Shown: positions 17,201 to 54,978 of the stretch, in pieces | Layout: each line of letters opens with the position of its first letter | Position numbering within the stretch: the first letter of the stretch is position 1 | Assembly: GCA_040954595.2 (NCBI GenBank) | Contig: CM082589.2 | Span: 11,110,894 to 11,174,893 of the forward strand | Length of the DNA: 64,000 bases | Reading direction: 5' to 3' | DNA from: Balanoglossus misakiensis | Taxonomy: Eukaryota; Animalia; Hemichordata | Translations under genes and position numbers: made by a program | Notes under the pieces: generated by a model | What the model saw: the letters and a program-made list of their open reading frames with translations, nothing else | Told to the model about the DNA's origin: nothing | Database searches by the model: none

Positions 17201-19310
17201 GTAACCAGGCCGTAGTGGACAGTGTTCTGCCCATTAATTTTGAGTGTTTGGTGGGGTCAACCTTTGCGTCAACATTAACCAGAGCACACAGTAACCAGGC
17301 CATAGTGGACATTGTGCTGCCCATTAATTTTGAGTGTTTGGTGGGGTCAACCTTTGCGTCAACATTAACCAGAGCACACAGTAACCAGGCCGTAGTGGAC
17401 AGTGTTCTGCCCATTAATTTTGAGTGTTTGGTGGGGTCAACCTTTGCGTCAACATTAACCAGATCACACAGTAACCAGGCCATAGTGGACAGTGTTCTGC
17501 CCATTAATTTTGAGTGTTTGGTGGGGTCAACCTTTGCGTCAACATTAACCAGAGCACACAGTAACCAGACCGTAGTGGACAGTGTTCTGCCCATTAATTT
17601 TGAGTGTTTGGTGGGGTCAACCTTTGCGTCAACATTAACCAGAGCACACAGTAACCAGGCCATAGTGGACAGTGTTCTGCCCATTAATTTTGAGTGTTTG
17701 GTGGGGTCAACCTTTGCGTCAACATTAACCAGAGCACACAGTAACCAGGCCATAGTGGACAGTGTGCTGCCCATTAATTTTGAGTGTTTGGTGGGGTCAA
17801 CCTTTGCGTCAACATTAACCAGAGCACACAGTAACCAGGCCATAGTGGACAGTGTTCTGCCCATTAATTTTGAGTGTTTGGTGGGGTCAACCTTTGCGTC
17901 AACATTAACCAGAGCACACAGTAACCAGGCCATAGTGGACAGTATGCTGCCCATTGATTTTAAGTGTTTGGTGGCGTCAACCTTTGCGTCAACATTAACC
18001 AGAGCACACAATAACCAGGCCGTAGTGGACAGTGTTCTGCCCATTAATTTTGAGTGTTTGGTGGGGTCAACCTTTGCGTCAACATTAACCAGAGCACACA
18101 GTAACCAGGCCATAGTGGACAGTGTTCTGCCCATTAATTTTGAGTGTTTGGTGGGGTCAACCTTTGCGTCAACATTAACCAGAGCACACAGTAACCAGGC
18201 CGTGGTGGACAGTGTGCTGCCCATTAATTTTGAGTGTTTGGTGGGGTCAACCTTTGCGTCAACATTAACTAGGCCAGAGTGGCCAGTATCGTGCCCATTA
18301 ATTTTGAGTGTTTCGTGGGGGTCAACCTTTGCGTCAACATTAACTAGGCCAGAGTGGCCAGTATCGTGCCCATTATTTTTGAGTGTTTGGTGGGGGTCAA
18401 CCTTTGCGTCAACATTAACTAGGCCAGAGTGGCCAGTATCCTGCCCATTAATTTTGAGTGTTTGGTGGGGTCAACCTTTGCATCAACATTAACCAGAGCA
18501 CACAGTAACCAGGCCATAGTGGACAGTGTTCTGCCCATTAATTTTGAGTGTTTGGTGGGGTCAACCTTTGCATCAACATTAACCAGAGCACACAGTAACC
18601 AGGCCGTAGTGGACAGTGTGCTGCCCATTAATTTTGAGTGTTTGGTGGGGTCAACCTTTGCGTCAACATTAACTAGGCCAGAGTGGCCAGTATCGTGCCC
18701 ATTAATTTTGAGTGTTTGGTGGAGGTCAACCTTTGCGTCAACATTAACTAGGCCAGAGTGGCCAGTATCCTGCCCATTAATTTTGAGTGTTTGGTGGGGT
18801 CAACCTTTGCATCAACATTAACCAGAGCACACAGTAACCAGGCCATAGTGGACAGTGTTCTGCCCATTAATTTTGAGTGTTTGGTGGGGTCAACCTTTGC
18901 ATCAACATTAACCAGAGCACACAGTAACCAGGCCGTAGTGGACAGTGTGCTGCCCATTAATTTTGAGTGTTTGGTGGGGTCAACCTTTGCGTCAACATTA
19001 ACCAGAGCACACAGTAACCAGGCCATAGTGGACAGTATGCTGCCCATTGATTTTGAGTGTTTGGTGGGGTCAACCTTTGCGTCAACATTAACTAGGCCAG
19101 AGTGGCCAGTATCGTGCCCATTAATTTTGAGTGTTTGGTGGGGGTCAACCTTTGCGTCAACATTAACTAGGCCAGAGTGGCCAGTATGCTGCCTATTAAT
19201 TTTGAGTGTTTGGTGGGGTCAACCTTTGCGTCAACATTAAGCAGGCCAGACAGTAACCAGGCCAGAGTGGACAGTATCCTGCCTATTAATTTTGAGTGAT
19301 TTGTGGGTCA
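5294..19310. repeat. Tandem satellite/minisatellite array, about 160 units (about 120 of 90 bp, about 40 of 74-75 bp)
   Basis: 90-bp unit TTAATTTTGAGTGTTTGGTGGGGTCAACCTTTGCGTCAACATTAACCAGAGCACACAGTAACCAGGCCRTAGTGGACAGTGTKCTGCCCA; 74-bp unit lacks 16 bp and ends TAGGCCAGAGTGGCCAGTATCGTGCCCA. Highly homogeneous, with more divergence after about 18.2 kb. Counts are approximate manual counts. Confidence 0.98.
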
Positions 19311-19721
19311 ATTTGATCAAATACTGCCTACCGCTGGCGCTGCATATTTGAAGAAATGTGAAAAGATGGCAAGACAGGTTTGGTAAATGTGGGCCCCCTA
19401 ACTGAAGCAAAAGCACAAACTTAAAACAAAGATATGAATTTGGAAGAGTTTTATTTATTACATATGAAAAATAATGAAGACTTATGCTTCAAAGTAAGTA
19501 TCGACGGAGTCGAACCGCCAATGCTGCAATGGCATTATACCCATAATACTTTTTTGCTTTTTGCATGAATTTCATTATTTTTCATATGCTATGCAGCTAA
19601 AGTGTGGCTAGATGGCTAACTGCTGATGTAAAATATCTTGCATACCAATTTGGAACAATTACCCCAAGTAGTGGTCAAACAGAAACAATGCTTGCATTCA
19701 ATTTAAAACAAGGTGACAAAA

Positions 19722-21051: not shown

Positions 21052-21239
21052 TTGACAGCATCCCTCTGGTTTTGATATTGTTATCTGGTGCGGCGTTGTT
21101 GTAGATATTGATTAGACTCCCTCCGGCGATGATAATACCAATGAACCTATTGAAAAAAAAGAATGAATATTATTAATTAGATCAGATCAACAAATCATGG
21201 CGTCGTTCATCCCTCTGGTCACAGGAGCATCATCTGGCG

Positions 21240-22015
21240 TTGTTACAGGTTTAAGTTCATCCCTCCAGTACAGTATAAGGTGGCGGCGTCGTTACAAGTA
21301 TTAAGTTCATCTCTCCAGTACAGTATTAGGTGGCGGCGGCGTTACAAGTATTAACTTCATCTCTCCAGTACAGTATTAGGTGGCGGCGTCGTTACAAGTA
21401 TTAACTTCATCTCTCCAGTACAGTATTAGGTGGCGGCGTCGTTACAAGTTTAAGTTCATCCCTCCAGTACAGTATTAGGTGGCGGCGTCGTTACAAGTAT
21501 TAACTTCATCTCTCCAGTACAGTATTAGGTGGCGGCGTCGTTACAAGTATTAACTTCATCTCTCCAGTACAGTATTAGGTGGCGGCGTCGTTACAAGTAT
21601 TAACTTCATCTCTCCAGTACAGTATTAGGTGGCGGCGTCGTTACAAGTATTAACTTCATCTCTCCAGTACAGTATTAGGTGGCGGCGTCGTTACAAGTAT
21701 TAACTTCATCTCTCCAGTACAGTATTAGGTGGCGGCGTCGTTACAAGTATTAAGTTCATCTCTCCAGTACAGTATTAGGTGGCGGCGTCGTTACAAGTAT
21801 TAACTTCATCTCTCCAGTACAGTATTAGGTGGCGGCGTCGTTACAAGTATTAACTTCATCTCTCCAGTACAGTATTAGGTGGCGGCGTCGTTACAAGTAT
21901 TAACTTCATCTCTCCAGTACAGTATTAGGTGGCGGCGTCGTTACAAGTTTAAGTTCATACCTCCAGTACAGTATTAGGTGGCGACGTCGTTACAAATATT
22001 ACACTCCCTCCAGCA
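21240..22015. repeat. 50-bp minisatellite, about 15 copies (some 49 bp)
   Basis: TACAGTATTAGGTGGCGGCGTCGTTACAAGTATTAACTTCATCTCTCCAG repeated with a 50-bp period. Confidence 0.97.
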
Positions 22016-27526: not shown

Positions 27527-30334
27527 TACATCCATACATAAATACAGACGCAACTGATTCCATAAGGCCCATGGTACATACCATATGGGACCTAAAAACT
27601 GCAGAAGCTACACAAAACATTAATACTGAAAACATGGCAAACAGTTGTTGCTAACGGGGTTTTAAATCTCCCTTATAGATATTTTTGAACTCCCAATTTA
27701 TGATTATTGACTGTTTGATTGATTAGTTGTTGCACAAATGATAGTATTATCAAAGTAAATAATATCTGTGAGAAATTTCTTTTCATATTTATTTGAATAT
27801 GGATAGGGTAAGATGGGGGTTAAACAAAACTACATTTGTTCAAAAGTGGCAAAAACACAAATATGCAAAAATCACTATAATTGTACACCATCTTACTTAA
27901 ATCACTACAAGGAACATTCCTGTCAAAGTTCAAAGCAATCTGACAAGCGCTTTCAGACACAGCGAATTTGATAACCATCTACAAATATATTTTTATTTTT
28001 TAAACAATTCTTTTACAACACCTTACTTGGGTTACCCCCCTAGGAATCTGCATTCTGAGCAAAAATTACAAAATTGCTCAAAATTATAAATATACCAATT
28101 TCACAACAATTTGCAATTTGAACAAAAACTATGGCTTTCAGAAAGGAAGATTTTTCTTTACCAATAATGCAGTAAAAGACAAAACAATAAAAATAGAAAA
28201 TTCATAATATTAGCTCAAAACAAAACATACAGGACTGTATGGCATTTATTGACATTTATAAGAATATGGACAGGGTATGATAGGGGGGGGGAATTATAAA
28301 TTCCAAGGGGGTCATCAATTTTTTGTCATAGCTTTTTGGGGCCATAGAAAAAATAACCTAAAAAGTAGGAAATCCTACGTCCCCCTAAGCTTTCATTCTG
28401 GCCAACAACTTTTTATGAAGGCTTCTGCAGTTGTTAAAAACAGATTGCCTGCTATGTTAGACTATCAATCTATAGAGGGGATGAAAAATGTCCTTTTGTC
28501 AAGTGTCTGGATTTTGATAACTTCAACAGGTAAAAATATATTTGTAGATGTTTATCAAATTCGCTATGTCTGAAACAGTATGCTTGCAAATGTATTAATA
28601 TAGTCAGATAATATGAATAGTGAAGATAGCAAAACAAACAGGTTTATGCTTATAGCCATAACTTCTATTAGTGATGTACATGTTGTACTTAGCAAATAAT
28701 TGTTATGATCAACTTGGTTTTTATTGCACAAGATCTTTTTATTGCATCCATGTTTCGTTTCATTCTGGATAATAGTCTGTCTAAATAAGTTAACAGGCTT
28801 GATGAGGGTTATTTTAAACAGTGTTCTCAAAAAACCTGCAATGTCATGCCCTATATTTATAAAGTTGAGGAGAGGTTGTATTCCTAGCAGGATGTTGAAA
28901 TCATTGGAGGACAAACCCTGCCAGTACCAAAAGTTGCTGGGTGTTATAAATGTTTGAGTAACCCCCCCCCCTTCCCCAATAACACAATATATACTAAAAC
29001 ATTTTTACAACATCTTACTCAGTTTACCCTTAGGAATATGCCTACCAAATCAATCTGGCATGCAGTTTTAAAGAAAAAAAAATGACCAAAAGTGGCAAAA
29101 ATTGCTCAAAATTAAAATATGCAAATTTTTCAACAATTTGAACAAAACTTTGGTTACTCAGACAACCATTAGAAGCTTCATACTAAAATTCAAAGAATGA
29201 GGCCTATAACTTTAAGAAATGATGATTTCTTTACCAATAATGTGGAATAATACAAAAAATGCATAAAAGATTTTTGGCATAAAAAATTAAAAATCGATAA
29301 TATTAGCTCAAAACATACAGGACTGTTTGAGGTAGACATAAGGTACATTCATACTGATTTTCAAATGAATGTGACCAGTGGTTGTTGAGTTTGAGTTTTG
29401 ACCAATTTCACATTTTCCTAGCTAATTTGCATATTTTTGGCAATGACAGCTTCATTTGAACAAACTCCAATCTTCAGCCTGGCCTGCATCTACACACCAA
29501 ATATCGAGGTCATATGCCCAGCGGTTTTCAAGTTTGTGATGTGGACGGACATACAGACATACATACATACATCCACCGATATCATAAGGTCCCATGGTAA
29601 AGCAAATGGGACCTTACAAAACTATGATAACTCAGATCACCTATGAAGCTTCATACTAAATTTCAAATAAGTCAGCTGATCAATTCCAGAAAAGCAGATT
29701 TTCTACCGATAATGTGGAAAGAGACAAAAAATACATAAAAAATCGAAAATTCACATTAGCTCACAACATATAGAACTGTGTGAGGTTAACATAACTTACA
29801 GGAATACCAATTTTCAATTTTGAAAGCAATTTGCTCAGTAGTTGTCGAGTTCCCGAGTTTGGACGAATTTGACACTTTCCCAGCTAATTTGCATATTTTG
29901 GCAATGACAAGTTCATTTTGACAACTCCCACTTAATGCCCTGCCTGCATCTCCACACTAAATATCAAGGTCACATGCCAGTGGTTTCCAAGTGTTTGATA
30001 TTGATAGACATACAGACAAACATCCATACAGACATCCATATATACAGGTGCTACTGATCCCATAAGGTCCCATGGTATAAATACATATACCTGCACCAAA
30101 TGGGACCTAATAATTCTGATAAAATGCCTACATAGTAAGTTTAAAAACCAATTGTACCTTCAACGTCCTTGGACAACAATGGCTAATATTACTTGCCAAG
30201 GGCGACTAGAATTTTGGGGGCCTGATGCAATTCTGATACATGTACTTCATGATTTAGAGATATTGTGAAAATCCTGTCAACCGAATTACAGGGAAATCAG
30301 ATTTTCCATGTAAAATCATATCACCCAAAAATGT

Positions 30335-30804
30335 CAAGATCTTTTTATTGCATCCATGTTTCGTTTCATTCTGGATAATAGTCTGTCTAAATAAGTTAAC
30401 AGGCTTGATGAGGGTTATTTTAAACAGTGTTCTCAAAAAACCTGCAATGTCATGCCCTATATTTATAAAGTTGAGGAGAGGTTGTATTCCTAGCAGGATG
30501 TTGAAATCATTGGAGGACAAACCCTGCCAGTACCAAAAGTTGCTGGGTGTTATAAATGTTTGAGTAACCCCCCCCCCCCCCCTTCCCCAATAACACAATA
30601 TATACTAAAACATTTTTACAACATCTTACTCAGTTTACCCTTAGGAATATGCCTACCAAATCAATCTGGCATGCAGTTTTAAAGAAAAAAAAATGACCAA
30701 AAGTGGCAAAAATTGCTCAAAATTAAAATATGCAAATTTTTCAACAATTTGAACAAAACTTTGGTTACTCAGGCAACCATTAGAAGCTTCATACTAAAAT
30801 TCAA
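30335..30804. repeat. Near-identical copy of 28729-29193 inserted between two copies of a ~110-bp segment
   Basis: Direct comparison; flanking duplicate 30228-30338 / 30807-30917; the paralogous site at about 37745-37855 carries a single copy and no insert. Confidence 0.9.
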
Positions 30805-31062
30805 TTCAATTCTGATACATGTACTTCATGATTTAGAGATATTGTGAAAATCCTGTCAACCGAATTACAGGGAAATTAGATTTTCCATGTAAAATCATAT
30901 CACCCAAAAATGTCAAGTGTCGAAAATAATTTTGAAACAAAAAGTCTACTCAAAATCATACCAAAATTTAAATTTTAAAGCAGTACGTTAGGCAAGCAAT
31001 TTGAGAATGAAGAAACTTACAAAAAAATTATAAATTGAAAATAACTTACAAATGCCGGACAC

Positions 31063-31173
31063 AAACTTACAATCACTACCATATTACTGTACAAGTTAAA
31101 AGGACATTGTACCAGCAGAGACATTGCGATCGAGCAATCCCCAAGATATACATGACATGGTCTAATTACAAAT
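31063..31173 (-). ncRNA. Hairpin/exon C, copy 1 (candidate exon 31071-31161, 91 nt)
   Basis: Minus strand TTGTAATTAG|ACCATGT...GTGATT|GTAAGT; folds into a long stem with many G-U pairs that work only on the minus strand; the 91 nt are identical to 38003-38093. Confidence 0.45.
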
Positions 31174-32253
31174 ATTGAATATGTAAAATAGGTACACAAC
31201 ACTTCCATTCTTTCAGTACAGTCAGCTGCTTGTTAACAATAGGCATGTAGCTATTTCATCAACACCTTTCAATCATTAACTGGTTTATCTAGTGTCCCAT
31301 GTCAGGGGACTTGCCCCCACCCCATGATAACTTTGAGCGGCGACGGTTAAATTTATCCTCCCCAACATACTGGTAGTTGAGTTAATTTGCTTTTGCCGGG
31401 TTCATAAAAATGCAGCTTTGAGCTCTGTATTTTATAAAATTTTCTTACGTGGGAGGGGGACACCCCTTCCCACACCCACCCCCTTCAATTCCCGGTTTAC
31501 AATGTCTCCCAACACAGAATACAAATACTTAAAAAATAAAAACCATGTTCAGTTTTAATACCCACTGATGAGGGGAAGCATCAGTTTCAAAGTCTTTTCA
31601 TGGGAGCGCTGTTTTTCTTTTTTACAAGATAGATAAGTGATGTGTTTTGCTCTGTGAAAGAAAATGGGGGGGGGGATTTTAAAATTTTGGCAGTTCAGAA
31701 GGGGGTGGGGGATTTGAAAATATTTCGGGTTGTGTACAGGGGGGGGGCATGTGAAAATTAGCAGTAAAAAAATTGAATTTCCCCCCCCCCCCCCCCATCC
31801 AGAGGTGTTTGTGAATGGAGCCTAAGCTAAAGCTAAAGTGATAATGGGTCATAACAGACAAAATAACAAAATGTGAAAAACATTTAATGAGTTTAATATG
31901 CTAACTACGGAGACAGACATGTTTGACCAAAGCATGAAATACACAAAATGTATCATTTCTTCCACCTCTTACTACAGTGGGTTGTAGACTTTTCGCCCAG
32001 AATGCAATGTGATTTGACCCCCTAGCGCAAAGTGAAAACCTATTTAAGGCAGCCAGAATTTTCTGCATAGTATGACGGAAACATTTGTAAAGTCATGGCT
32101 AGCGTGGGCTGGTAAGTTTATATGGGGCTCTCCATGATAACCAGTTGTGGCTTACCACCACCATAATTTTGAAAGGGCGACTTCACTATTTGATGGGAAA
32201 AGGTAGCCTTTACAAACAAGCTATGGAGCATGTATACAGCAAGTTGTGCTTAC

Positions 32254-32326
32254 CGGAAAGCGGTCTTGGATCAGGCCTAGGTATTCTCTTCCTCCTCCGG
32301 CATACGTTGAAATGCTGTGTTTAAGA
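32254..32326 (-). ncRNA. Exon A, copy 1 (73 nt) of a spliced, hairpin-forming minus-strand transcript
   Basis: Branch-like TACTAAT, acceptor TTTGATTCACAG, donor CCG|GTAAGC; identical to 38991-39063; centre reverse-complementary to exon B. Confidence 0.6.
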
Positions 32327-33503
32327 CTGTGAATCAAATATATGCTTATCAATTAGTAACCAATCAACCTTGCTTTAGAATTATTTGGGCCATACTAATT
32401 AGTGAAAATATGCAAAACATGGTATAATATAGGGTCAGACTGTGCTGCGATAATGTACGTGGAATACGAATCAGAGAAATCTGTAACAGCGATCTTGAAA
32501 CTCCATTTACATCAGTACTGCAGTAAAGTGGTCCACATGGGTATACCACAAACATGGCAGTTAGGTGACAAGTGAAACTGACATCATATCTGTAAACGAC
32601 AGGTGTACACACACTTTGACATCTACGTAACACTGTACAATGATTTCTTAATGTTTGTTGTGAAAATGAAACTTACATTTGATCCACCTCACTTTTCATA
32701 CAACTGATTAGCGCAAGAATGTAAATTGTTGGCAATTATAAAACATTTATTTTACTATAGAAAAGTAAGCCTTTACATTTAAACTTTGAATATCAGTATA
32801 CTAAAATGTTTCAAACGTGGCTGTCAGTATATCTCATGGCATGGTGGCAGAAGTACATGTTGTTACCAGGGAAGACACATTGAACATAGACAAGCGCACT
32901 AGTCGCTTGGTGATTTTTCATCTAGATTCTCAAAACTTTCTGTGCATTTGGTAGCTTTGAGCAAGTTTCTGGTACTGAGCTGAGTTTCGAATTTGGAACT
33001 GGGCTGCTTTGGCTTTGATTACCATGGGCCAATATGATCTTATGCACACATTTTTGAAAAAAACTCCAGCCTGTTTGTGTCGTGATCTATATTTTTCTTT
33101 GTGGCCTAAGGTATTGTTTTATTTCACTATAAACAACATTACTTTCCTTCATGTGTCTATATATAATAATAGATCTCTTAGCCAGTTTGATGAAGCATAG
33201 TGTTGGACTAGCACACTTTCAGCCAAAATTACGGTATCTCCCCGTGTATTGGTATGGGAGTAATTTCTAGCTATATGGTTAAGGAAATGCATCCAAATTT
33301 AATTTATGCTTCACATGAAGATTTGAACTTGACCATTTAATTCATGTCATCACGATCATATCACAGGCAATCGAGGCTAGAATTCGAAGGAAAAAAGTAT
33401 TGATAACTGGAAGGTGTAAATTAGTTCGTAGACATACATTGTTTCCTATTGTTTCGGTTGTGCCACGCCCGATAAAAGCAAATATACAGCAAGTCATGCT
33501 TAC

Positions 33504-33578
33504 CATTGAGCGGTCTTAAACTCGCCCCAGACGAGGAAGAGAATCCCGAGTTGAAATGCAGACAATTTCAGGCAGCAT
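33504..33578 (-). ncRNA. Exon B, copy 1 (75 nt)
   Basis: Perfect TACTAAC branch point, acceptor TTTGATTCACAG, donor ATG|GTAAGC; 4 substitutions versus 39989-40063. Confidence 0.6.
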
Positions 33579-35189
33579 CTGTGAATCAAATAGATATAGA
33601 AGTTAGTAACCAGTCATAGTAGCTCTAAGTTGGGTGTAAAAGTCTAAGTTGGGTGTACTAACTCTCCTTGTTAACAGTAACTTTCAAAGAAACTGAGCAA
33701 TTGGTTAAAAAGATTTGCTATCCAAAAACAAAGAAATTTACAACAAACTACCTAAATATTGACAACCAGAATTTAATCAAAGTTGCACATACATGTACAT
33801 GTGTTATGAAATTGTTAACTAACTTCCAAAGCAATCAGGAACCAGATATTAACTGAATATGCTCACGTGCAGTACTGTGATTGGTTGACAGAATAACAAG
33901 ATTAGAAAAACCAGTTTTAAACCATTTTGGTTTATAGTGTATATGGTGTAAGGGTTGTGTGTTGCACCATTGTGAAATGTAAACATGTTTGTGGAATTGT
34001 TGCCTTGTCAATTTTTGTAAGGGGTTATGAGTCATGTACCCCATCCTGAACTGCATAAAAATAATAAGTCTATGGAATTCTAAAACTCTTTGATCAAAAA
34101 TGGCAAGAAATACACCAAAAAGTATGAATATTTCACCAGATTTCAACAAATCTGATTTCTGTTCATGCCTAAGAACCTCTTTAACAAGTTTCAATAAGGA
34201 AGACATTTTGGCAAACAACAGGAAATTCAGACAAATCTGACTGATATCACATATATGAATTCCCATTCAAAGTTTCCAACCAATTGGACTTGTGGTATTA
34301 CCGAAGACTATTTGGCCAAACCCTGCAGAAATTCCCAAAAAATACAATTATGCAAATTTCATTACAATTTGATCATATCTGACTGAGATCACCCCTAGAA
34401 ACCCAAATACAAAGTATCAAAACAATTGCACCTACATTTCACAGGATTGGATTTTTTGGCAAAAACAGGAAATATTGCCCAAAAATGCATTTTTGCAAAT
34501 TTCACCACCGTTTGCACAAATGTGATTCAGGTAAGCCCTATGAACCTCCATACCAAGTTTCCAATCAATTGGACATGTAATTTCAGAGAAATTTTTTTTT
34601 TAACAAAAATGCAGAAAATTCCCCCAAAAATTCATAAAAAATAGGAAACGCCAGATACTGACTCCACCTGAACAAAATCATACGAGGTCTTCCCAAAGTA
34701 CTTGCACACCAATGCACGCCAATTTTTAACTTAATCTGATCCGCTGTTATTAAGTTTTTCAATTTTGACTATTTGAACATTTTTCCAGTTAATACCAGTA
34801 TGCATTTTTTCGCAATAACAATTTCTATGTACACACTAAATATCAGTAGTTTCAAGTTTTTGATGTTGATGGACATACACATACATACATCAATACATTA
34901 AGACGAAACTGATCCATTCACAAAATACATAATTCTGTATGAGGCACACATACAGACATACATAGCCGACGGACACCAACTTATGCTATAAGCTGACATT
35001 TATATACATGTTAGCCAAAAACCAAAATCAACCTCAAAATAGACATTAAAATATATTGCACCACCATGAGAAGACAAATTCATTTTTTGACAAATTTTCT
35101 GGGGCGTCATTGATATAGCATGGCATATTGTCAAAGTACGTAGGCTCTGTGATAAGATTCCATACACACAAAATGGTAACCTTGGAAGT

Positions 35190-35950
35190 CCAGCTGACGT
35201 AGTTATGCAATGGCGTCTCGTGTATTCCGTCGCCAAAAAATCATCGTAAACTAATTGATAGTCGGGGTCACAATTCAAGACGACTTTCTCTAAATTCTTT
35301 ATGAATGGATTAAATCGAAATCGAAATGTTGACGTATGACGTACGGAATGAGATCTGAACAGACATTCAATGTTATCATTCTCGCTCGATCACATATTGG
35401 GTAGGCCATCTAGCAATCGCTATATAGTATTGGCGATAACAGACTGTCTATAAACACACAAAACGGATTTTACTGTTGAGTGTGATCAACCGCCATGTTA
35501 TTTTTCTCTGAACAATAGACAAATAGAAAGCCTGGTGACATTTTGAGATTGACTGCGTGAGGACCACAATATGCGTGAATCATTTACGGTTTGTCTTGAT
35601 GAATGGGTCACGTCATAGTCATAACGCGGATTCGGCTGCACGCCAACTATCCGCCATATTGTCTCCACTAACTTACTCGTAAGTAGTTTCAAACTTCATT
35701 TGAAAAGAGTATTCGTCTGACGGTCCTGTAGATTAACAATTTACGCTCTATGAAGCAACTAAACAACGTTAGCTTCCTTGTGGATTCACGTAGGGAAGTT
35801 ATTCGTAACGACGGGTACAGCGTCTGAGCATGGACAGAACCACGGCAATATCGCCAGGAATGTCTCATTTCACAGCGCCCTCAAACAGTCGATCTCCTCA
35901 AACTATCGTTTCCACTGGTCATATATGCAGCATTAACGAAAGCTCTCATA
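35190..35950 (-). promoter_or_regulatory. CpG-enriched promoter-like island upstream of exon B copy 1
   Basis: Raised CpG content, CCGCCAT (YY1-like) at about 35490 and 35651, TGACGT motifs, minus-strand GTAAGT donor at 35676-35671. Confidence 0.3.
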
Positions 35951-37994
35951 GACAACCATGTAATAGAAAAAATTAAAACTTTAATAACTTCATTAATATC
36001 AAAGCCACACCCACCAAAACCTTTTCAGTTCTTGCCATATGATATCTGAACCTGTGTACTAAATTTGGTTGAAATCGGTTCAGCGGTTCTTGAGATATCG
36101 GGTATACAGACAGACACACACATACACAGACATCGCTAAACTATAAGCTCACGTGATTTTCAGGTGAGCTAAAAATTGGGTTACCCCTAGGAATATTCCT
36201 ACCATATTTCAAAGCCATCAAAAAAGCAGTTTCAAAGAAAAACACATTTGTTCAAAAGTGGCAAAAACACAAATATGCAAACATCTCTATAATTGTACAC
36301 CATCTTACTTCAATCACTACAAGGAACATTCCTGCCAAAATTCAAAGCAATCTGACAAGGGTTTGAACGGTTTAACAGAAAACAGTTTTTGACAAAGATT
36401 GCAAAAAATATCCCCAATAACACAAGCACGCAGTTTTAACCATTTTTATGACATCTTCCTTGGGTTACCCCTGGGAATCTGCCTACCAAATTGCAAAGCA
36501 TTCTGACCTTAATTGGCAAAATTGCTCAAAATTATAAATATGCCTATTTTACAACAATCTGAACAAAAAATATGGTAACTCGGACCACCCATAGGAAGCT
36601 TCATACTAAATTTCGAAGGAGTCGGACTATCGCTTTCAGAAGTGAAGATTTTTTTTTACCAATAATGTGGAAAAAGACAAAAAAAATTAATAAACATTAG
36701 AAAATTCATAATATTAGCTCACAACATACAGGACTGTATGGGGTTCATTGACATACCAATCTGACCAGTGGTTGTCAAGTTTCTGACTTTTGACCAATTT
36801 CACATTTACACAGGTAATATTTTGGCAATGACAATTTCATTTGAACAAAATCCCATCTACAGCCCCGCCTGCATCTACACACTAAATATGGAAGTGATAT
36901 GCCCAGCGGTTTTCATCCATTCACTCATACATACAAATGCAACTGATTCCATAAGGTCCCAATCGTATATATGTACATAAACCAAATGGGACCTAAAAAT
37001 TGCTCCAAAATTATAAATACGCAATTTTTGGCAACAATTTAAACAAAACTATGGTTGGTAACTCAGATCACCTATGAAGCTTCATAATAAATTTCAAACA
37101 AGTCAGCTGATCAATTCCAGAAAAGTAGGTTTTTACCGACAATGTGGAAAGAGACAAAAAAAATGCTTAAAAATAGAAAATTCACATTATTAGCTCACAA
37201 CATGTAGAATTGTGAGAGGATACCATAAGGTACATGCATACCAATTATCAATTTTGAAAGCAATTTGCCCAGTAGTTGTTGAGTTCCCAAGTTTTGACGA
37301 ATTTGACACTTTCCCAGCTAATTTGCATATTTTGGCAATGACAACTTCACTTAGACAAACTCCCATCTACTGCCCTGTCTGCACATTAAATATCAAGGTG
37401 AAATGCCAGTAGTTTCCAAATGTTTGATGTTGATGGACATACAAACATCCATACATACAGGTGCAACTGATCCCGTAAGGTACCATGGTATAAATACATA
37501 TACCAAATGGGACCTAATAATTCTGATAAAATGCGTACATACGTACATACATACAAGTCAGCAATAAAGAGACGGGATAGTGGGCTGGCACTGAGTGTCT
37601 ATTTCTATTGCAAATTATAAACATGCAGCAAGTGTAAAAACCACATGTACCTTCAACGTCCTTGGACAACACATTTTTGTAACTTTCCCAGATCAATGGC
37701 TAATATTACTTGCCAAAGGCGACTAGAATTTTGGGGGCCTGATGCAAGTCTGATACATGTACTTCATGATTTAGAGATATGATGAAAATCCTGTCAACCG
37801 AATTACAGGGAAATCAGATTTTCCATGTAAAATCATATCACCCAAAAGTGTCAAAAATAATTTTGAAACAAAAAGTCTACTCAAAATCATACCAAAATTT
37901 AAATGTTAATGCAGTACGTTAGGCAAGCAATTTGAGAATGAAGAAACTTACAAAATAATTTATAAATTGTAAATAATTTACAAATGCCGCACAC

Positions 37995-38105
37995 AAACTT
38001 ACAATCACTACCATATTACTGTACAAGTTAAAAGGACATTGTACCAGCAGAGACATTGCGATCGAGCAATCCCCAAGATATACATGACATGGTCTAATTA
38101 CAAAT
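37995..38105 (-). ncRNA. Hairpin/exon C, copy 2 (candidate exon 38003-38093)
   Basis: Identical to copy 1 over the 91-nt core. Confidence 0.45.
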
Positions 38106-38990
38106 ATTGAATATGTAAAATATGTACACAACACTTCCAGTCTTACAGTACAGTCAGCTGCTTGTGAACAATAGTCATGTAGCTATTTCATCAAATTTAC
38201 AGCCCAAGTCTTGCCTATACAATTCTCCCTACTTTAAACACGTTTTAAGCTACCCTAAATGAGTGATGAAAATCTCATACGGTCGATAATTTCAAGATGG
38301 CCGATTTTTGCCATGTTAAAGAAATGGGAGTTCATAAGCTAAAATGATGATGGGTCATTCTTGAACTTTTTAACAGAAAAAATAGCAAAAGTGAAAAAAA
38401 GTTTAATATGCTAACTACCGAGACAGAAATGTTTGACCGAAGGAAGTCATGAAATACAGTAAACATATCATTTCTTCTATCTCTTACTACAGTTGGTTAT
38501 GGACTTTCCGCCCAGAATGCAATGAGATTTGACACCTAGCGCAAAGTGAAAAACCTATTTAAGGCAGCCAGAATTTTCTGCATAGTATGACGGAAACATT
38601 TGTAAAGTCATGGCTAGCATGGGTTGGCAGGTTTATGGGACCCGCTCAGGTTCCCTCGAATAACACATAATGCATGATTGGTGACTGATTATTGTTTATT
38701 TGTTGATTTTGTCACATTTTCAGAAAAATCCCTATCAATCAGTCATATTTGTTTGGCCTTGCTATACAGCGCAATATGAATCTTGTTGACTGAAATTGTT
38801 GAGGATAGTGGTACATAAAGGTTACCAATTGGAAAATATTAAAATGATTATTAGTGGTGTCCAACTCTTCATGATAACCAGTTGTGGCTTGCCACCACCA
38901 TAATTTTAAAAGGGTGACTTCACTATTTGATGGGAAAAGGTAGCATTTACAAACAAGCTATGGAGCATGTATACAGCAAGGTGTGCTTAC

Positions 38991-39063
38991 CGGAAAGCGG
39001 TCTTGGATCAGGCCTAGGTATTCTCTTCCTCCTCCGGCATACGTTGAAATGCTGTGTTTAAGA
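38991..39063 (-). ncRNA. Exon A, copy 2 (73 nt)
   Basis: Same splice signals and sequence as 32254-32326. Confidence 0.6.
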
Positions 39064-39399
39064 CTGTGAATCAAATATATGCTTATCAATTAGTAACCAA
39101 TCAACCTTGCTTTAGAATTATTTGGGCCATACTAATTAGTGAAAATATGCAAAACATGGTATAATATAGGGTCAGAAAAAATTTCCAGCCTATTTGTGTC
39201 ATGATTTACATTTTTCTTTCTGGCCTAAAGTATTGTTTTATTTCACTCTAAACAACATTACTTTCCTTCATGCGTCTAATATAATAACAGATCTCTTAGC
39301 CAGTTTGATTAAGCATAGTGTTGGACTAGCACACGTTCAGCCAAAGTTAAAGTATCTCCCTGTGTATTGATATGGGAGTAATTTTAGCTATATGGTTAA

Positions 39400-39746
39400 A
39401 GGGACAAAGTCTCTCTGTCGCTGTCCTTTTTCCATTAATTATGTTTGATACAAGACACTGTTTATGTCAATGTACATTTGGATATATAGTGAATAAATGA
39501 TCAACCACACAAAACTTCCATCCCGCTTGTATGATATGAGAGTAAAAACTCGCCCAAAATGAATAAATGGTAAAGAACGATTATTCATTTTGGCGAGTAT
39601 TTTTACTCTCGTGTCTACAAGTGGGACGGAAGTTGTGTGTGGCTGAACGTTCATTCACTATATATCTACATGTAGAATAACAAACGGTGTCTTGTATCAA
39701 ATATAATTAATGGAAAAAAGGGCAGCGAGAGAGAGACTTTGTCCCT
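39400..39746. mobile_element. Palindromic Kolobok-like MITE with TTAA TSD
   Basis: TTAA|AGGGACAAAGTCTCTCT ... AGAGAGACTTTGTCCCT|TTAA; the paralogous empty site at 33279-33282 has a single TTAA. Confidence 0.92.
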
Positions 39747-39988
39747 TTAAGGAAATGCATCCACATTTATTTTATGCTCCACGTGAAGATTTGAACTTGT
39801 GAGTTGTCCATCTAATTCATGACATCACGATCATATCACAAGCAATCGAGGCCAGAATTCGAAGGGGAAAAAACAGGTACATTGTATTGAAAGCTGGAAT
39901 ATGTAAATTAGTTCGTAGACATACATTTCTTCCTATTGTTTCGGTTGCAACACCCGATAAAAGCAAATATAAAGCAAGTCATGCTTAC

Positions 39989-40063
39989 CATTGAGCGGTC
40001 TTAAACTCGCCCCGGACAAGGAAGAGAATCCCGAGTTGAAACGCAGACAGTTTCAGGCAGCAT
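39989..40063 (-). ncRNA. Exon B, copy 2 (75 nt)
   Basis: TACTAAC branch, TTTGATTCACAG acceptor, GTAAGC donor. Confidence 0.6.
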
Positions 40064-40266
40064 CTGTGAATCAAATAGACATAGAAGTTAGTAACCAGTC
40101 ATAGAAGCTCTGCGTGGCAGGGCTGCGTGTTAACGGCTATACCATAGCTCCCACTGGTAGCTTATAACAGTCTCAATGGTGCCAAAAATCTCCCCAACAA
40201 CAAAACCAACCCTGGTCAGTTTATTCGCTATCGCTTTGCCTTAAAAGTTATACTGTAGTGTGTTAC

Positions 40267-40680
40267 CACAGGGGGCTCCTCCCTCCGCGATTTTATTGTT
40301 TGTTTGTTGTTGTTGATTGGCATAATAAACAAATACATATTTCTTTATTAATAAATATGGTTTGTTGACATGTAAGTGTTAGGGTATATTCAACAGTTAG
40401 GGTTACTGTTGGCATTTTTTTCGATCCACGGCCCCGGGCATCACTAAGCCACAGGGGGTGGGGGGGGGGGGTTTGGGGGGGTGATTCCGGCCATGGATCG
40501 AAAAAATGCCAACACTAATTCTAACCGTTGAATATACCATAACCTGTCAAATATACCCTAATAACCTAACCCTTACATGTCAACAAACCATATTTATTAA
40601 TAAAGAAATATGTATTTGTTTATTATGCCAATCAACAACAACAAACAAACAATAAAATCGCCTAGGGAGAGCCCCCTGTG
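40267..40680. mobile_element. Foldback MITE, P-element-like (7-bp TSD)
   Basis: GTGTTAC|CACAGGGGGCTC ... GAGCCCCCTGTG|GTGTTAC; inverted arms span most of the element, around a G-run centre. Confidence 0.8.
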
Positions 40681-43289
40681 GTGTTACGGTACCACCTGCT
40701 CCACAATAACAAAGCTGACTCGAGCCAACGAACGACGTACAATTTACTCGCACGGTGTAATATAACGCACAAATTCCATGCGACTGTGAGTTTACTGTTT
40801 GGTGCTGTAACGCTTCCCAAAGTCAGAATTTCGATGTTGGGAGGACCCTCTCGCCCTACCACGACCAGTTTTTGCTAGAAGGAGTGTACATGTACTTGTA
40901 AAATAACATTAAATGCCATGCTTACCAGAGAAACGACATCATCAAGCATGGAGGCGACCGGGACCTCCATGCTTGATGAACGTCAAAGCTGCAATGATTT
41001 TTCAAATGCAATGGTCAGCGGTACGAGAACGAGGCACCAGCTGTGCGTCAATTATGCAACTTACTTACTACTCAATCAGAATCCTGCTTCAACATGACGT
41101 AACACTAATTAGTCAAAGAATGCAATGCAACGTATGTGTGCGGGTGGAGAATGCGCCTCACGTCAATGCAGACACACCAGACACACACACTGAAATGCAA
41201 ATTGAGGAATTATGTCACGGTGTTCTTTGGAAGTGCGAATGAATAAAATATTTCGTTTTCTTCAGTGTTTTTGTACTACAAAAAAAATTGCTAAAAAACG
41301 ACTAGCAAGCGCTTATGCAATAAAATACAAATAAATATAATTATCGCCAATTGGAAATGGAACGTCAATCCGCATTTGTCAAAAAATAACAGAAAAGACA
41401 AAGGAGCTGAGACGTCCTAAAATAAAAGGAATGACCTCTCTGTTCTGACCTGTATGAGGAAGCCCTATTGTAATACGCAATATGTCGGATCATGCTACCA
41501 TCCGCCATTCTGATTGGACGAGAGATCAATCCATCGATACGAAAGTACTCAATAGAGCACTGCTAAAACTGGCCCCTGAACTAATAGCATGCAACAGGGA
41601 AAACGTGACTAAATAAAAAAAAAATATAGCTGATAAATTTACGGACGGCCGGTTTATTTTTTAACTGCTCTATTGGAACTGTTGTCACTGTCATGCACGA
41701 TGCATGTCTTGTCATTGCGCACTCGTGTTAACATTCATCAGAGCGCCTTTCGATCAATTCGTAACGTTTACATTAGACTCGAGTTCATTTTCGTTATGAA
41801 AATGACATTGATATACACAAAGTCGATTACTGATATAAAATAATAGCAATAACCCTAACCATAGATTAGGCTATAGCATTCCGGTATTTTTTTCAATATC
41901 ACTCAGGAAGGATTCTATAACATTCTGTTTTGTATCGGGATGTATAATTTAATATCCATACTACAAAACAAATATCAGCGGTAACTCAGAAAATATTGTT
42001 GAAAATTTGTTCTCTGTAGGCCTAACCATGGTAAGATAATGCAATGCCGGTAAGTATTTTGGAAGTCAAGGTTGCATTGTATTGTCTGGTGTTCAAATAA
42101 TCACAAACATCCCGGAAGACTAAATTCTTTCTGTCAAAACCACTTCTGCAACGACAAGAACTTTCAGGGCAGGCAAAACCATGGCATGAAGACGATATGA
42201 AGTCGATGAGTTAATGTTATGTTGAACCCGGCCACTTTACGTATCTTAACTATTCACACATTGACCATTCTATAATTCTCTCCCTTTTGATGTCTTCTTT
42301 GTGGTTTGTTTGTAAAAATGTTGCCTGTGTTGAAACTTGACTACTTGTCACTTTTGCCTACCAAGAATAATATGACCAAAAGGGGTGGCATGAAATTCTA
42401 GACTGTAACAAAACTCGATTTCATGACCCAAAGTTTGATTTTATGTGTTTTTGGTTTGGACGTGGCAAAGACATGTAAATTCCGACCACCTATACACCAT
42501 CCATACATGTATGAATCGACATCATTTATTGCACGAGAGACTTCAAGCAAGCATTCCATCATCGCAAAAGGACAAAGAGAGAGCGACTTTGTCTCTTTAA
42601 ATTAATTTAGCAAGTTCAAAGTGAATGCCCACATGAAAACCTTTACTCAGCAATTTTTTTTGTAATTAATAAAACTAGGTTTGGTATGTTTTTGCGCTTG
42701 TTTTATTTTCCTTTTGTCTATAAATAGTCGTATATTTTAAAACAGCTAAAATGGGTCAAATGGGGCATTTTTCCATCCCACCTCATCCTAGCTAAGAGCT
42801 TCAGTGCCGGTCACCTCCACAAAATTAATTTACCACGAACAAATTGAAATACAGCCAATCGGAAAAAGTGCGCCACCACATGGTCATTTGAAGACTTTTA
42901 TGCTCTCTTCTTTTATGCTGGCCGTAAACGCATGTGATCTGGAATAAATCGAACATCGATCGTGTTTTATTTATTTTCACCACCAGCGAAAATCTACGAC
43001 GGCCCAACCGCAGATTATTGCTGCTCCATACAACAACTGGCTTAAACTGTTCTGTGCATGTGTTTTGTGTTCTGGTGGCGTTTGCGGGTCTGAGACGTCA
43101 TTTGTAGAAGGCCCTATTCGTTTTCTACCAATAACTTTTACCAACCATGCTAGAACTATTTCGTTTTCTTTGACGACGCTTGACACTTTTCTTGCTTTGT
43201 TGTTAGTACATGTAGTTTGTTTGTTCGTTACGTCTGTTACTGGGGTTCTTCACTTGTAGTCTGGTTACACTATGAGATAGGTGCCGTTA

Positions 43290-44765
43290 ATCAGAATTCT
43301 TGGTAAGGAAGGTTTGAGAAGTCCATTCTATGTAAAAAATGGTGCTCATTCCAAAAAAGTCAGTCTTATTAACCCCACTCAAGACAAAATTGCCATTTTG
43401 GCCATTTTTAACCCCAAAATGGTCTTTTTTAGAAAACACTAAAAACACATTGTTTTCGTCACATTCTGAGATCTGATAACATATGATATGCTTATTCTAT
43501 GTAAAATTTGGTGAATATTACGAAAAAAGTAGTTCGATTGACCCAAAACAACAGAAAATTGCCTTTTTGACCAATTTTTGCCCCAAAAACGTCATTTTTA
43601 GAAAAAAAATAAAACACACGGCTTTCTTCATAATGATTGATCTGGTGATATATGGAAAGTCAATTCTATGTTAAAAGTGGTGACTTTAAAAAATAAAGCA
43701 GTCTTTTTGACCTCAATCAATACAAAAATGCCATTTTTGGCCACTTTTTGTGGTCAAAAAAGGTCATTTTTACAAAAAAACTAAAAATAAATTGTGTTTA
43801 TCATATTCAGAGATCATTGGATATATGAAATGTCCATTCTATGTAAAAAATGGTGCTGATTCCAGAAATAGCAGTCTTATTGACCCTACTCAAGAAAAAA
43901 TGCCATTTTTGCCACTTTTTGCCCCAAAACGTCATTTTCAGAAAACACACAAAATTTATATATTTTCTTCACTTTCGGAGATCTGATAATGTATTATATG
44001 CCCACCCTATGTAAAATCTGGTGATTATTCGAAAAAAGCAGATTTATTGACCCAACCTAATGCAAAAATGCCCTTTTGGAAAGTTTTTGCCCAAAAAGGC
44101 CATTTTTAGAAAAAAAATTAAAAACAAACTTTTCTTCATAAAGCTCAGAGATCATGTTATATATGAAATGTTCATCCTATGTAAAAAATGGTGCTGATTC
44201 CAGAAATAGCAGTCTTATTGATCCTACTCAAGAAAAAATGCCATTTTGCCACTTTTTGCCCCCAAAACGTCATTTTCAGAAAACACTCAAAATTTATATA
44301 TTTTCTTCACTTTCGGAGATCTGATAATGAATTATATGCCCACTGTATGTGAAAAGTTTCCAAAAAAGCAGTTTTATTGATGCCACTCAAGATAAAAGTG
44401 CCTTTTTGGCAAGTTTTTGCCCAAAAAGTGTCATTTCTAGAAAATACGAAAATTATGCCATTTTCTTCCCATTGGTGATCAAATGATAAATAAAAGTACT
44501 AAAAAACCCACTCTTACTGACCCCACTGAGGGAAAAAAAATATCATTTTGGCCTCTTTGCTCAAAAAGGTAACTGTTAGAAAAAATAAATACAAACTTAT
44601 TCCTTTATATTCAGAGCCCTTGTGATGTATGTAAATTCGTTTTTTGTGTGTGTGTGTGTGCAAAAAATATGCTGATACCAGCACAACGGTCTTATTGAGA
44701 CACCCCGCTCAGTACAAAATTGCCATTTAGCCATCTTTTGGTCAACAATAGGCATTTTCAGAAAA
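43290..44765. repeat. Diverged AT-rich tandem repeat, ~170-bp period with ~340-bp dimer structure
   Basis: ATTCTATGTAAAAAATGGTG..CAGTCTTATTGACCC..AAAATGCCATTTTT recurs at about 43326, 43495, 43663, 43836, 44005, 44174, 44345; alternate units (43831/44169) are the most similar. Confidence 0.85.
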
Positions 44766-49229: not shown

Positions 49230-50092
49230 ATCAATCAATCAATCAATCAGAGAAATTTGTATAGCGCCAGTATCTATAACAAGTGTCATACTCAAAGGCG
49301 CTTGTGCTCATTGGCCCACACCATATGCTCTTGCGAAATAATGCGTCTTCAGTCTTTTCTTAAAGATACTCAAACTTGGAGCTTGACGAATGTTCCACAG
49401 TTTCGTTGCAGCATGAGAGAATGCTCGGCCACCGTATGAAGAACGTTTGTACATTGTAGTGCATAAAAGGCTCTTATTAGCTGAACGAAGCCTGCGACCA
49501 GGAGAATATGTCCGAATGAGATCGCGGATATAGTTCGGAGCGAGATTATTTAAGGCTTTGTATGTGAGCAGATTTATTTTATACTCTATCCTGTGGCGAA
49601 CTGGTAACCAATGAAGAAGTTGAAGAACTGGCGTTATATGGGCAGACTTCCTGGACCGAGTTATGATTCTTGCAGCTGTATTTTGTGTGCGTTGTAGAAG
49701 GTTCAGACTGCGTTCTGGTATACCATACAGTAATGCATTACCATAGTCGAGTTTCGCTGCCAAAATAGCATGAATCACTGTTTGACATGTTGCTTTGTTA
49801 AGAAATTTCCTGATTTGTCCGACACGGCGAAAGTGGTAATATATTGATTGACAAGTTTTCTTGATGTGATCTTTATACATGTGCGTATTGTCAAATATTA
49901 CACCAATATTGCGAGCTGATTTAACGACGGGAACAGAGCTTGAACCAATGGTAATCTTGTCAATAGCATCAGCAGAGTGATGAAATTGTGAACGAATAAG
50001 TAGAATCTCAGTTTTTGGAGTCGTTGAGTTGAAGCTTGTTTTGGGTCATCCAGTCCTTAAGATCACGGATACAGGCCTCAATGGACATTTGG
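49230..50092 (-). mobile_element. 5'-truncated L2 LINE, ORF2 C-terminal part with (ATTG)n tail
   Basis: DWMTQNKLQLN, AKLDYGNALLYG, LQRTQNTAARII, HITPVLQLLHWLPVRHRIEYK, GGRAFS..KLWN; frameshifted; microsatellite tail at 49230-49248. Confidence 0.9.
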
Positions 50093-50786
50093 GCAAAAAC
50101 CAACTGACACTTACATTCGTCCCTGTGGAACAAAAACCACACCTATCGCCCTGTTGGTTAGTGTCCAATTAAATGTACAAAATCAATGACTTAGGCAGGT
50201 GCAACAGACGACCCCGCCTTTGGTATATCATTATGGTCCCATCCGTATATGCCCCCCCCCCTCCCAAGCCAAAGCTGCATGCATCTGCTGTGGATGCTCA
50301 CTAAGCAAAAGTAGGTGAAAGGTCACATAAGGTCGCCCACAACTTGACGGGAAAATCGGACTTCATATTGATCCATGTGCAACAAATAGCACGCTACCAC
50401 CCCTTTCATTGACCCCACAATTACGCATGCACATAATTATTGAGTTATGCAGGTGTCACAGGTGACACCCGAATCGGGTGTATTATTTTAGTCCCATACA
50501 GCTGCATGTAGCTGCGTGCCGTTACGGGCGACCTGATAACCCACACGGCCACCTGCGGGCCGACCCCCATACTGAACGTCCAGTTGCAACATCACGACTG
50601 AAGTAGGAACTTTTGAACGGCAACGAAGCCTGATCTCTGATTATTGCTGGTACCATACTCCTGTCGTGCAAGAAAATCACTGGTCTGCTGACGTATTTCA
50701 GCCAATTTCCCAAACTACTATCCACTACATGTGACTACAATGCTAATGAAACCTCCCACAACATTAGCGACTTAGGGTCAAAGTCC

Positions 50787-54658: not shown

Positions 54659-54978
54659 AGGGACAAACTCTCTCTCTCGTCGCCCTTTTCTATTAATTAT
54701 GTTTGATACAAGACACCGTTTATATTAATGGGCATGTGTATATGTAGTGAATGAACGTTCAACCACACACAACTTCCATCCTGCTTGTATGATATGAGAG
54801 TAAAAACTCGCCCAAAATGAATTAATGGTAGAGACCGATTTTTCAGTTTTGCGAGTTTTCGCTCTCGTGTCTACATGCGGGATAGAAGGTGTGTGCGGTT
54901 GAACGTTGCATCACTATATATCCACATTTACATTAATATAAACGGTGTTTTGTATCAAACATGGAAAAGGGCAGCGAG
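54659..54978. mobile_element. Copy of the 39400-39746 MITE family, right TIR truncated
   Basis: TTAA|AGGGACAAACTCTCTCTCG and shared body (GATACAAGACAC, GAACGTTCAACCACACAC). Confidence 0.85.

What the first reader, a model, noticed from the sequence alone, without database searches (positions are those of the whole stretch)
32254..33578. Splicing-assembled hairpin: two small exons ~1 kb apart with complementary centres
Seen: minus-strand exon B (33578-33504) and exon A (32326-32254) have strong splice signals (TACTAAC/TACTAAT branch, TTCACAG acceptor, GTAAGC donor). Joined B|A, the RNA folds as CUCGGGAUUCUCUUCCUCGUCUGG paired with CCGGAGGAGGAAGAGAAUACCUAG (21 of 24 positions, three isolated mismatches). 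An asymmetric internal loop follows, then a perfect 9-bp stem GUUUAAGAC/GUCUUAAAC with the exon junction at the edge of its 8-nt loop. The pair is repeated at 40063-39989 and 39063-38991, and both stem substitutions in that copy are C/U changes opposite G, so pairing is kept. Known: a ~22-24-bp duplex with scattered single mismatches is miRNA/miRNA*- or hpRNA-like, and animal pre-miRNA arms normally lie in one contiguous stretch. Inference: a small-RNA precursor or structured RNA whose compact hairpin exists only after intron removal, so hairpin-finding on genomic DNA would miss it.
Basis: partly seen in the sequence, partly recalled or inferred. Interest (0 to 1): 0.85.

Follow-up and report, generated by a model that had tools for sequence, protein, structure and literature searches.

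The report
Split hairpin across duplicated non-coding exons
Two short exon-like stretches about 1 kb apart in an animal genome (likely an acorn worm) are copies of each other whose middles face opposite ways, so a spliced RNA would fold into a hairpin; no RNA data could test whether it is made or yields small RNAs.

Summary
In detail: coordinates, splice-like signals, 21 of 24 pairs, the 9-bp stem and the second copy are as described, and the B/A complementarity exceeds all 7480 genomic controls. One in-place inversion of A's centre explains most of the match. A third paralogous exon-like unit, E0 (41040-40926), lies upstream with its own perfect 16-bp hairpin. Predicted spliced products have no ATG frame above 35 codons. 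Signs of selection on the fold are suggestive only. All four B1/B2 differences keep pairs, two as a compensatory couple in a small hairpin (P 0.006 with the helix chosen afterwards, 0.06-0.08 structure-blind). Three of them are also synonymous in one open frame. microRNA geometry is poor: 49 nt between the arms, a broken basal stem, a firm core of only 17 pairs. The duplex is also predicted across the unspliced intron. Splicing and small RNAs could not be tested. Verdict: likely a spliced, structured non-coding RNA born of exon duplication plus inversion (0.42); neutral relic 0.35; intron-split small-RNA precursor about 0.18.

The parts
40926..41040 (-). E0: predicted 115-nt non-coding exon, distant paralogue of A and B; stops in all three frames
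   Evidence: upstream flank homologous to A's out to about -95 (score 36 vs shuffle mean 15.6, 0 of 1000); donor shared with B
40933..40985 (-). E0 internal hairpin: perfect 16-bp inverted repeat (40939-40979, 9-nt spacer) extending to about 21-22 pairs
   Evidence: z -5.4 for the exon, 0 of 200 shuffles; longest of 6 perfect repeats of 11 bp or more with loops up to 30 nt in the window
39989..40063 (-). B2: predicted 75-nt exon, upstream copy
38991..39063 (-). A2: predicted 73-nt exon, identical to A1
33504..33578 (-). B1: predicted 75-nt exon
32254..32326 (-). A1: predicted 73-nt exon, paralogue of B with an inverted centre
33527..33550 (-). 5' arm of the long duplex (B 29-52; in copy 2 40012-40035)
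32277..32300 (-). 3' arm of the long duplex (A 27-50; in copy 2 39014-39037)
33513..33521 (-). 5' strand of the 9-bp stem (B 58-66); partner is A 1-8 (32326-32319) plus one G, supplied by B's last base after splicing or by the acceptor's G before it
   Evidence: pair probability 0.96-0.97
33552..33570 (-). B-internal 6-bp hairpin (B 9-14 : 22-27); the pair 33565/33557 is U-A in B1 and C-G in B2
   Evidence: pair probability 0.03-0.53 by copy and context
32352..32358 (-). branch-point-like TACTAAT of A1 (also 33608, 39095, 40093 for the other three units)
32327..33503 (-). predicted B1-A1 intron (1177 nt), with a 616-nt segment (32440-33055) absent from copy 2; the copy-2 intron (39064-39988, 925 nt) holds a foldback element at about 39396-39750 instead
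28970..40111 (-). tandem duplication: about 28970-33626 and 36410-40111; B-A intron and downstream segments about 9% diverged (65 of 694); it starts about 48 nt before B and excludes E0

Best explanation
These are paralogous exon-like units (E0, B, A, then a second B-A) of a likely spliced non-coding RNA in a likely acorn worm; B's centre is an inverted copy of A's, likely made by duplication and an in-place inversion, so the spliced RNA would fold into a cross-exon hairpin that selection likely keeps. Shown in the sequence: the shared splice flanks and motifs, the inverted centre, the second copy, the E0 hairpin, and no long ATG frame. Inferred: one ancestral exon duplicated (E0/A first, then B/A). 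A replication template switch or similar event flipped about 23-30 nt in place in one copy, which at once made B and A complementary; later the B-A pair duplicated in tandem. Predicted: the RNA E0-B2-A2(-B1-A1) carries two duplexes of about 21-24 columns in series, one inside E0 and one across the B/A junction. My working mechanism is a young hairpin small-RNA cluster: the B/A hairpin would be cropped and diced like the extended invertebrate microRNA hairpins, and splicing would shorten its loop from about 1 kb to 49 nt. I give that output about 0.18 of the 0.42; the rest is a kept fold with another role.
For: Paralogy: identical blocks of 10, 14, 10, 9, 8 and 12 nt in the same order in B and A. 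Homology runs from about -45 to +27 and none is found beyond (472 and 152 of 1000 shuffles as good). Inversion: the global B1/A score rises from 3.5 (39 of 63 identical) to 45.5 (50 of 67) with one inversion at A 27-49 or 21-50; the best of 60 controls with a shuffled centre is 38.5 (coarser grid). Template switching is a published route to such inversions and hairpins (PMC10710096 passages; PMC8794818 abstract). Non-coding: longest ATG frame in the predicted spliced forms is 35 codons. Hints of selection: (1) 4 of 4 B1/B2 differences keep pairs, two forming a U-A to C-G couple (P 0.006-0.007 for the named helices). (2) The inner copies of the 9-mer pair 9 of 9, while other pairings of the homologous 9-mers give 4-7 of 9. 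(3) B/A mismatches cluster between perfect blocks (32 runs vs 40 expected, P 0.02). (4) A second duplex of the same size sits in the paralogous exon E0. Long, structured inter-arm regions with a bulge near the dicing site are processed in invertebrates (PMC12553114 section 14). Host clade: the window's CACTA transposase is 69% identical to a Glandiceps talaboti protein, next 40-46%.
Against: Nothing here shows transcription, splicing or small RNAs. The selection hints weaken when the helix is not chosen afterwards: P 0.064 that four sites include partners in any B-internal pair, and 32 of 400 random four-transition variants fold as well as B2. Exon B is not significantly more conserved than the introns (4 of 75 vs 65 of 694, P 0.29; with flanks 7 of 153, P 0.055). 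The arms differ at 4 of 24 sites, close to the 4 of 27 in the donor flank, as a neutral relic would. A's invariance spans 186 nt including 113 nt of intron, which looks like gene conversion or assembly collapse, not selection. Template switching can also create compensatory changes without selection. The basal stem is two helices of 3-4 pairs at probability 0.3-0.9 that compete with the B-internal hairpin. Deuterostome microRNA loops are uniform (one chordate loop over 50 nt among 13,788 homologues). Here the spacer is 49 nt and the larger side of the bulge is on the 3' strand, whereas moving the mir-989 bulge to the 3p arm blocked maturation. E0's exon interior shows no significant direct similarity to A or B.
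Confidence: 0.42

Rival explanations
1. Neutral relic: duplication plus local inversion made the complementarity once. The exons may or may not still be spliced into a low-level transcript, and the fold does nothing.
For: One inversion explains the long duplex. Arm divergence (4 of 24) matches flank divergence (4 of 27). The 5' 9-mer of A is a direct homologue of B 6-14 (7 of 9 with B2), so the short stem partly predates the split. Structure-blind tests give P 0.06-0.08. The region is rich in repeats and local duplications.
Against: Branch, acceptor and donor consensus are intact in all four units while the sites between the blocks differ; the 9-bp stem is perfect; all four copy differences keep pairs, one couple compensatory.
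Confidence: 0.35
2. The pairing works in the unspliced RNA: B and A pair across the intron, hold the splice sites together or mask A's acceptor, and so set exon inclusion in a host non-coding or 5'-UTR transcript.
For: The 17 core pairs are in the predicted fold of both unspliced copies, and the short stem, which would cover A's first bases, in copy 2 (8 of 8; 0 of 8 in copy 1). Each B and A donor sits in a small hairpin (-4.5 to -6.4 kcal/mol) whose 5-nt loop varies while the stem stays. A's arm is GA-rich like a splicing enhancer (recalled motif class).
Against: Single predicted folds of 1.1-1.3 kb RNAs are unreliable; no isoform data; no downstream coding exon was seen in 19-32 kb.
Confidence: 0.13
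3. Coding exons of a short secreted peptide: B's one stop-free frame reads like a signal peptide and runs on, stop-free, through A; the complementarity is incidental.
For: B frame 1 and A frame 1 are open, and 3 of 4 B1/B2 differences are synonymous in that frame (P 0.12).
Against: No ATG lies in that frame in B. Splicing E0, the donor at 47089 or another B onto B puts TGA at the junction (each ends in TG, B starts with A). The motifs shared by B and A fall in different frames, and A has two stops in the homologous frame. A2 spliced to B1 enters a frame that stops after 20 codons. No Pfam match for either 24-aa piece (too short for a strong test). CT-rich sequence reads as hydrophobic residues by itself.
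Confidence: 0.07

Closest known systems
Intron-split plant microRNAs: monocot miR444 family and Solanaceae miRtop14 (PMC11706861; passages and Introduction read)
   Same: An intron lies between the two arms, so the compact hairpin appears on splicing and genomic hairpin scans miss it.
   Different: Those are plant DCL1 substrates with sequenced products and known targets. This is an animal locus with no expression data; its arms come from paralogous exons, and no match to either arm other than the family copies lies in the window at up to 30% mismatch.
Extended invertebrate microRNA hairpins such as Drosophila mir-989 (PMC12553114; passages and section 14 read)
   Same: A duplex of about 22-24 columns, a bulge next to it, then further paired stem before the loop.
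   Different: They keep a basal stem of about 10 bp; no intron-split case appeared in the passages found ('intron' and 'splic' occur only in references). Deuterostome loops are reported as uniform. Here the larger side of the bulge is on the 3' strand and the basal stem is broken.
Hairpins and de novo microRNAs made by template-switch mutation (PMC10710096 passages; PMC8794818 abstract and outline)
   Same: One event yields an inverted repeat or an inversion; E0's perfect 16-bp repeat and the flipped centre of B versus A fit these outcomes.
   Different: The cases seen there are local hairpins in one stretch. Here the inversion sits in one of two duplicated exons, so the partner arm lies in the next exon.
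Drosophila hpRNAs (endogenous hairpin siRNA loci; recalled, search gave one unrelated listing)
   Same: Young, lineage-restricted inverted repeats in long non-coding transcripts.
   Different: hpRNA stems are typically much longer than one small-RNA unit (recalled); here the firm duplex is 17 pairs.

Membership tests
canonical animal microRNA (MirGeneDB criteria, PMC12539619 passages) | imperfect hairpin with at least 16 paired nucleotides in the stem | tested here: met
   21 of 24 columns pair; 17 with probability about 0.8 or more in the predicted spliced RNA; E0 hairpin about 21-22 pairs
canonical animal microRNA | reads from both arms, 5' homogeneity, 2-nt offsets | not testable with these tools
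   no small-RNA run of this organism was offered
canonical animal microRNA | about 33-35 bp stem with a basal stem of about 10 bp and a short loop (PMC12553114, PMC10710096) | tested here: not met
   49 nt between arms, 97 nt arm to arm; basal region is 3 + 4 pairs split by asymmetric loops, probability 0.3-0.9; E0 hairpin has only a 5-bp extension beyond a large asymmetric loop
extended (giant) invertebrate microRNA hairpins | [quoted passage not shown] | tested here: inconclusive
   9-bp extension and asymmetric loop present, but the larger unpaired side is 3' and the basal stem is weak; compared
intron-split microRNA (miR444, miRtop14 type) | intron between the two arms removed in vivo | not testable with these tools
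   splice signals present; no RNA of this organism available (see Tried and rejected)
intron-split microRNA | conserved arms and a cognate target | not testable with these tools
   no genome held; no orthologue found; no other arm match in the window
any Rfam family (microRNA, snoRNA, ribozyme) | covariance-model match at gathering score | tested here: not met
   0 matches in 64 kb; none of 12 weak matches in 28-48 kb falls on E0, B or A. Genomic DNA only: the spliced form could not be scanned
protein-coding exon pair | start codon and continuous frame through the joined exons | tested here: not met
   longest ATG frame 35 codons; the open B frame has no ATG and gets TGA at the E0 junction; an unseen upstream exon is not excluded

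The most novel reading that the evidence does not exclude
An animal intron-split small-RNA precursor, built by exon duplication and inversion: a family of exon cassettes keeps fixed splice flanks and motifs while each carries or completes a different duplex of about 22 pairs, and splicing of B to A switches on cropping and dicing. It would extend the miR444/miRtop14 layout from plants to a deuterostome and show a one-step route to such genes.
Probability: 0.18. Interest if true: 0.8.

Novelty: new variant of a known kind. Interest (0 to 1): 0.45.

Why it matters
If the B/A hairpin is diced, animal genomes hold small-RNA genes that genomic hairpin scans cannot see, and duplication plus in-place inversion of an exon is a simple way to make them. 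My paper searches (open-licence library only, listings plus the passages cited) found intron-split precursors in plants and none in animals. Even if not diced, the locus is a clear case of complementarity between neighbouring exons arising from a local inversion, a caution for scans that read such matches as function.

Tried and rejected
Expression: no RNA holder listed. The 22 RNA runs offered share only a species label with the two holders. I laid 4 of the 22 (X21, X4; X3, X13; about 1 in 100 of each run). X3 and X13 gave 0 reads on 32170-33680. X21 (74 reads, all partial) and X4 (455 reads, 428 partial) fell on G/C and A/T runs, with no depth on the exons. These runs do not appear to hold this organism, so this is no test. 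Genome: none held. Holders X1 and X2 are one sample, possibly the window's source. At 80% likeness 10 contigs per run lay on 32170-33680 (8 shown); all shown fit the two known copies, so no third close copy was seen, but depth is 3-6 and absence is not proved. Pattern scans: 0 hits for the A arm in metagenomes, 1 in viral contigs, 43 for the shared exon-end motif; none of the 44 loci shows family similarity beyond the motif region. Rfam negative. Profile scans found no further family member in the window. Earlier scan findings: none. The LINE reverse transcriptase gave no clade signal. Rejected ideas: hammerhead or hairpin ribozyme cores (by eye against recalled motifs, not found); direct homology of E0's hairpin to A's centre (looked plausible, not significant); a circular B-A rod (circular folds -42.5 and -45.0, weaker than linear); A's identity between copies as a sign of selection. 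Errors corrected: the arm count and the 'with E0 stem' rows used wrong indices (redone); one search timed out with no output. The 'spliced miRNAs' of 10.1101/125997 are mirtrons (one passage). No supplements were read.

Full report
Setting. The window is repeat-rich animal DNA: satellites, LINE fragments, foldback elements and a CACTA transposase. The transposase's best relative is a Glandiceps talaboti protein at 69% identity, the next at 40-46%, so the host is likely an acorn worm; this is an inference from one transposon. No genome is held.

Observation. The four units, their splice-like signals and both helices are exactly as reported. The inverted match between B and A beats 7480 of 7480 genomic controls and all but 1 of 20000 shuffles. 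The predicted spliced RNA folds better than shuffles (z -2.6 and -3.1; 5 and 1 of 500). The firm part is 17 pairs plus the 9-bp stem; the outer columns of the long duplex are weak.

They share, in order, the branch block (10 nt), the acceptor (14 nt), GCATTTCAAC, AAGACCGCT, the donor (8 nt) and a 12-nt block after it. Homology spans about -45 to +27 and is not detectable further out. The two arms occupy the same slot, each 9 nt before AAGACC. Inverting one segment of A in place (27-49, or 21-50 with the same score) lifts the global match to B1 from 39 of 63 to 50 of 67 identical columns and the score from 3.5 to 45.5; the best of 60 shuffled-centre controls reaches 38.5. So the long duplex needs only duplication and one local inversion. 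Template switching is a published source of such inversions. The short stem is not explained by that inversion. A's first bases are the direct homologue of B 6-14, and of the six pairings among the homologous 9-mers only the one across the junction is perfect (9 of 9; others 4-7).

It shares B's donor, and its upstream flank matches A's out to about -95 (0 of 1000 shuffles), though its interior does not align significantly with A or B. It carries the window's longest perfect short-loop inverted repeat (16 bp). After splicing, its base would pair with B 3-7 (probability 0.5-0.75). The inferred order of events is E0/A duplication, B/A duplication with inversion, then tandem duplication of B-A with several kb downstream (about 9% diverged in the aligned intron and flank segments). 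The 186 nt around A are identical between copies, intron included, which points to conversion or assembly collapse. One contig of the holder run differs from both copies at 32345-32350.

All four differences thus keep pairs. With helices named afterwards, P is 0.006-0.007. Structure-blind, it is 0.064 for any partner couple and 32 of 400 for folding energy. Three of the four are also synonymous in B's open frame (P 0.12). Exon B is not significantly slower than the introns (P 0.29; with flanks 0.055), and B/A mismatches are mildly clustered (P 0.02). I read this as suggestive, not conclusive, selection on splicing and fold.

Coding. E0 has stops in all frames. B's open frame has no ATG and acquires TGA when E0 is spliced to it. 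The shared motifs fall in different frames in B and A, and the predicted spliced forms have no ATG frame above 35 codons. No downstream coding exon was recognised. Coding is unlikely, but an unseen first exon is not excluded.

How it would work. A minus-strand transcript, perhaps from the CpG-rich stretch at 40.5-42 kb (observed/expected 0.9-1.3), would splice E0-B2-A2 and possibly B1-A1. It would present two duplexes of small-RNA size. For B/A the layout is a broken basal stem, a 24-column duplex, an asymmetric loop, a 9-bp extension and an 8-nt loop, 97 nt arm to arm. This resembles the extended invertebrate microRNA hairpins, which need a bulge near the dicing site and paired stem beyond it. 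But deuterostome loops are reported as uniform, the bulge is mostly on the 3' strand, and the compensated B-internal hairpin competes with the basal stem. The core duplex is also predicted across the intron, so splicing makes the hairpin compact rather than creating it. In a four-exon RNA, A2 could pair with B1 as well as B2.

Comparison and novelty. Intron-split precursors are described for plant miR444 and miRtop14. My searches found no animal case, within an open-licence library and mostly at listing level. The locus works, at most, like those; it is not filed as a microRNA, since canonical geometry fails and read-based criteria could not be tested. No Rfam family matches the genomic sequence.

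Verdict. Real and beyond chance, with a plain origin. Kept, spliced, structured non-coding RNA 0.42 (small-RNA precursor about 0.18 within it); neutral relic 0.35; pre-mRNA pairing that steers splicing 0.13; coding 0.07. Interest 0.45: cheap to settle with RNA data, and notable if the arms yield small RNAs.

Noticed in passing
window 464-4268 (+): CACTA/EnSpm-type transposase gene (Pfam Transposase_21) with a 741-codon open last exon and two likely introns (donors at 599 and 1121); best relative Glandiceps talaboti, 69%.
   Followed up: partly
window 5293-19311: 14-kb satellite of 90-nt units interrupted at intervals by runs of about five 74-nt variants, a higher-order pattern.
   Followed up: no
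window 58416-64000; 21236-22001; 43321-44452: Further satellites with periods 78, 50 and 169 nt.
   Followed up: no
window 39396-39750, 54653-54978, 55598-55885: Three copies of a roughly 350-nt foldback element with TTAA at its ends; one sits in the B2-A2 intron. It shares a 10-nt word with B just before the 9-bp stem, probably chance.
   Followed up: partly
window 40265-40682: A second foldback element (116-nt arms, 94% complementary) between E0 and B2.
   Followed up: no
window 32253-32238, 33503-33488, 38990-38975, 39988-39973 (-): Each B and A donor folds into a small hairpin with the conserved block after it; the 5-nt loop varies while the stem stays.
   Followed up: partly
window about 32395-32404, 39132-39141 and 41105-41114: A 10-nt palindrome about 70-80 nt before the acceptors of A and E0, kept while neighbouring bases differ; it could be a second branch site or a protein-binding site.
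   Followed up: no
window 32185-32156 (-): Possible 30-nt exon 68 nt after A1, with a GT donor in copy 1 and GC in copy 2.
   Followed up: no
window 35001-36000 and 40501-42000: CpG-rich patches (observed/expected 0.9-1.3 against mostly 0.7 or less nearby), one upstream of each B copy; not similar to each other.
   Followed up: no
window 49308-53326 (-): Broken LINE elements with reverse-transcriptase remnants.
   Followed up: partly
window 41386-43200: In runs X1/X2 this stretch is covered by one contig at depth 12 that differs from the window at 18 sites plus gaps, while contigs identical to the window in 32-41 kb have depth 3-4; unexplained (other haplotype or a repeat).
   Followed up: no
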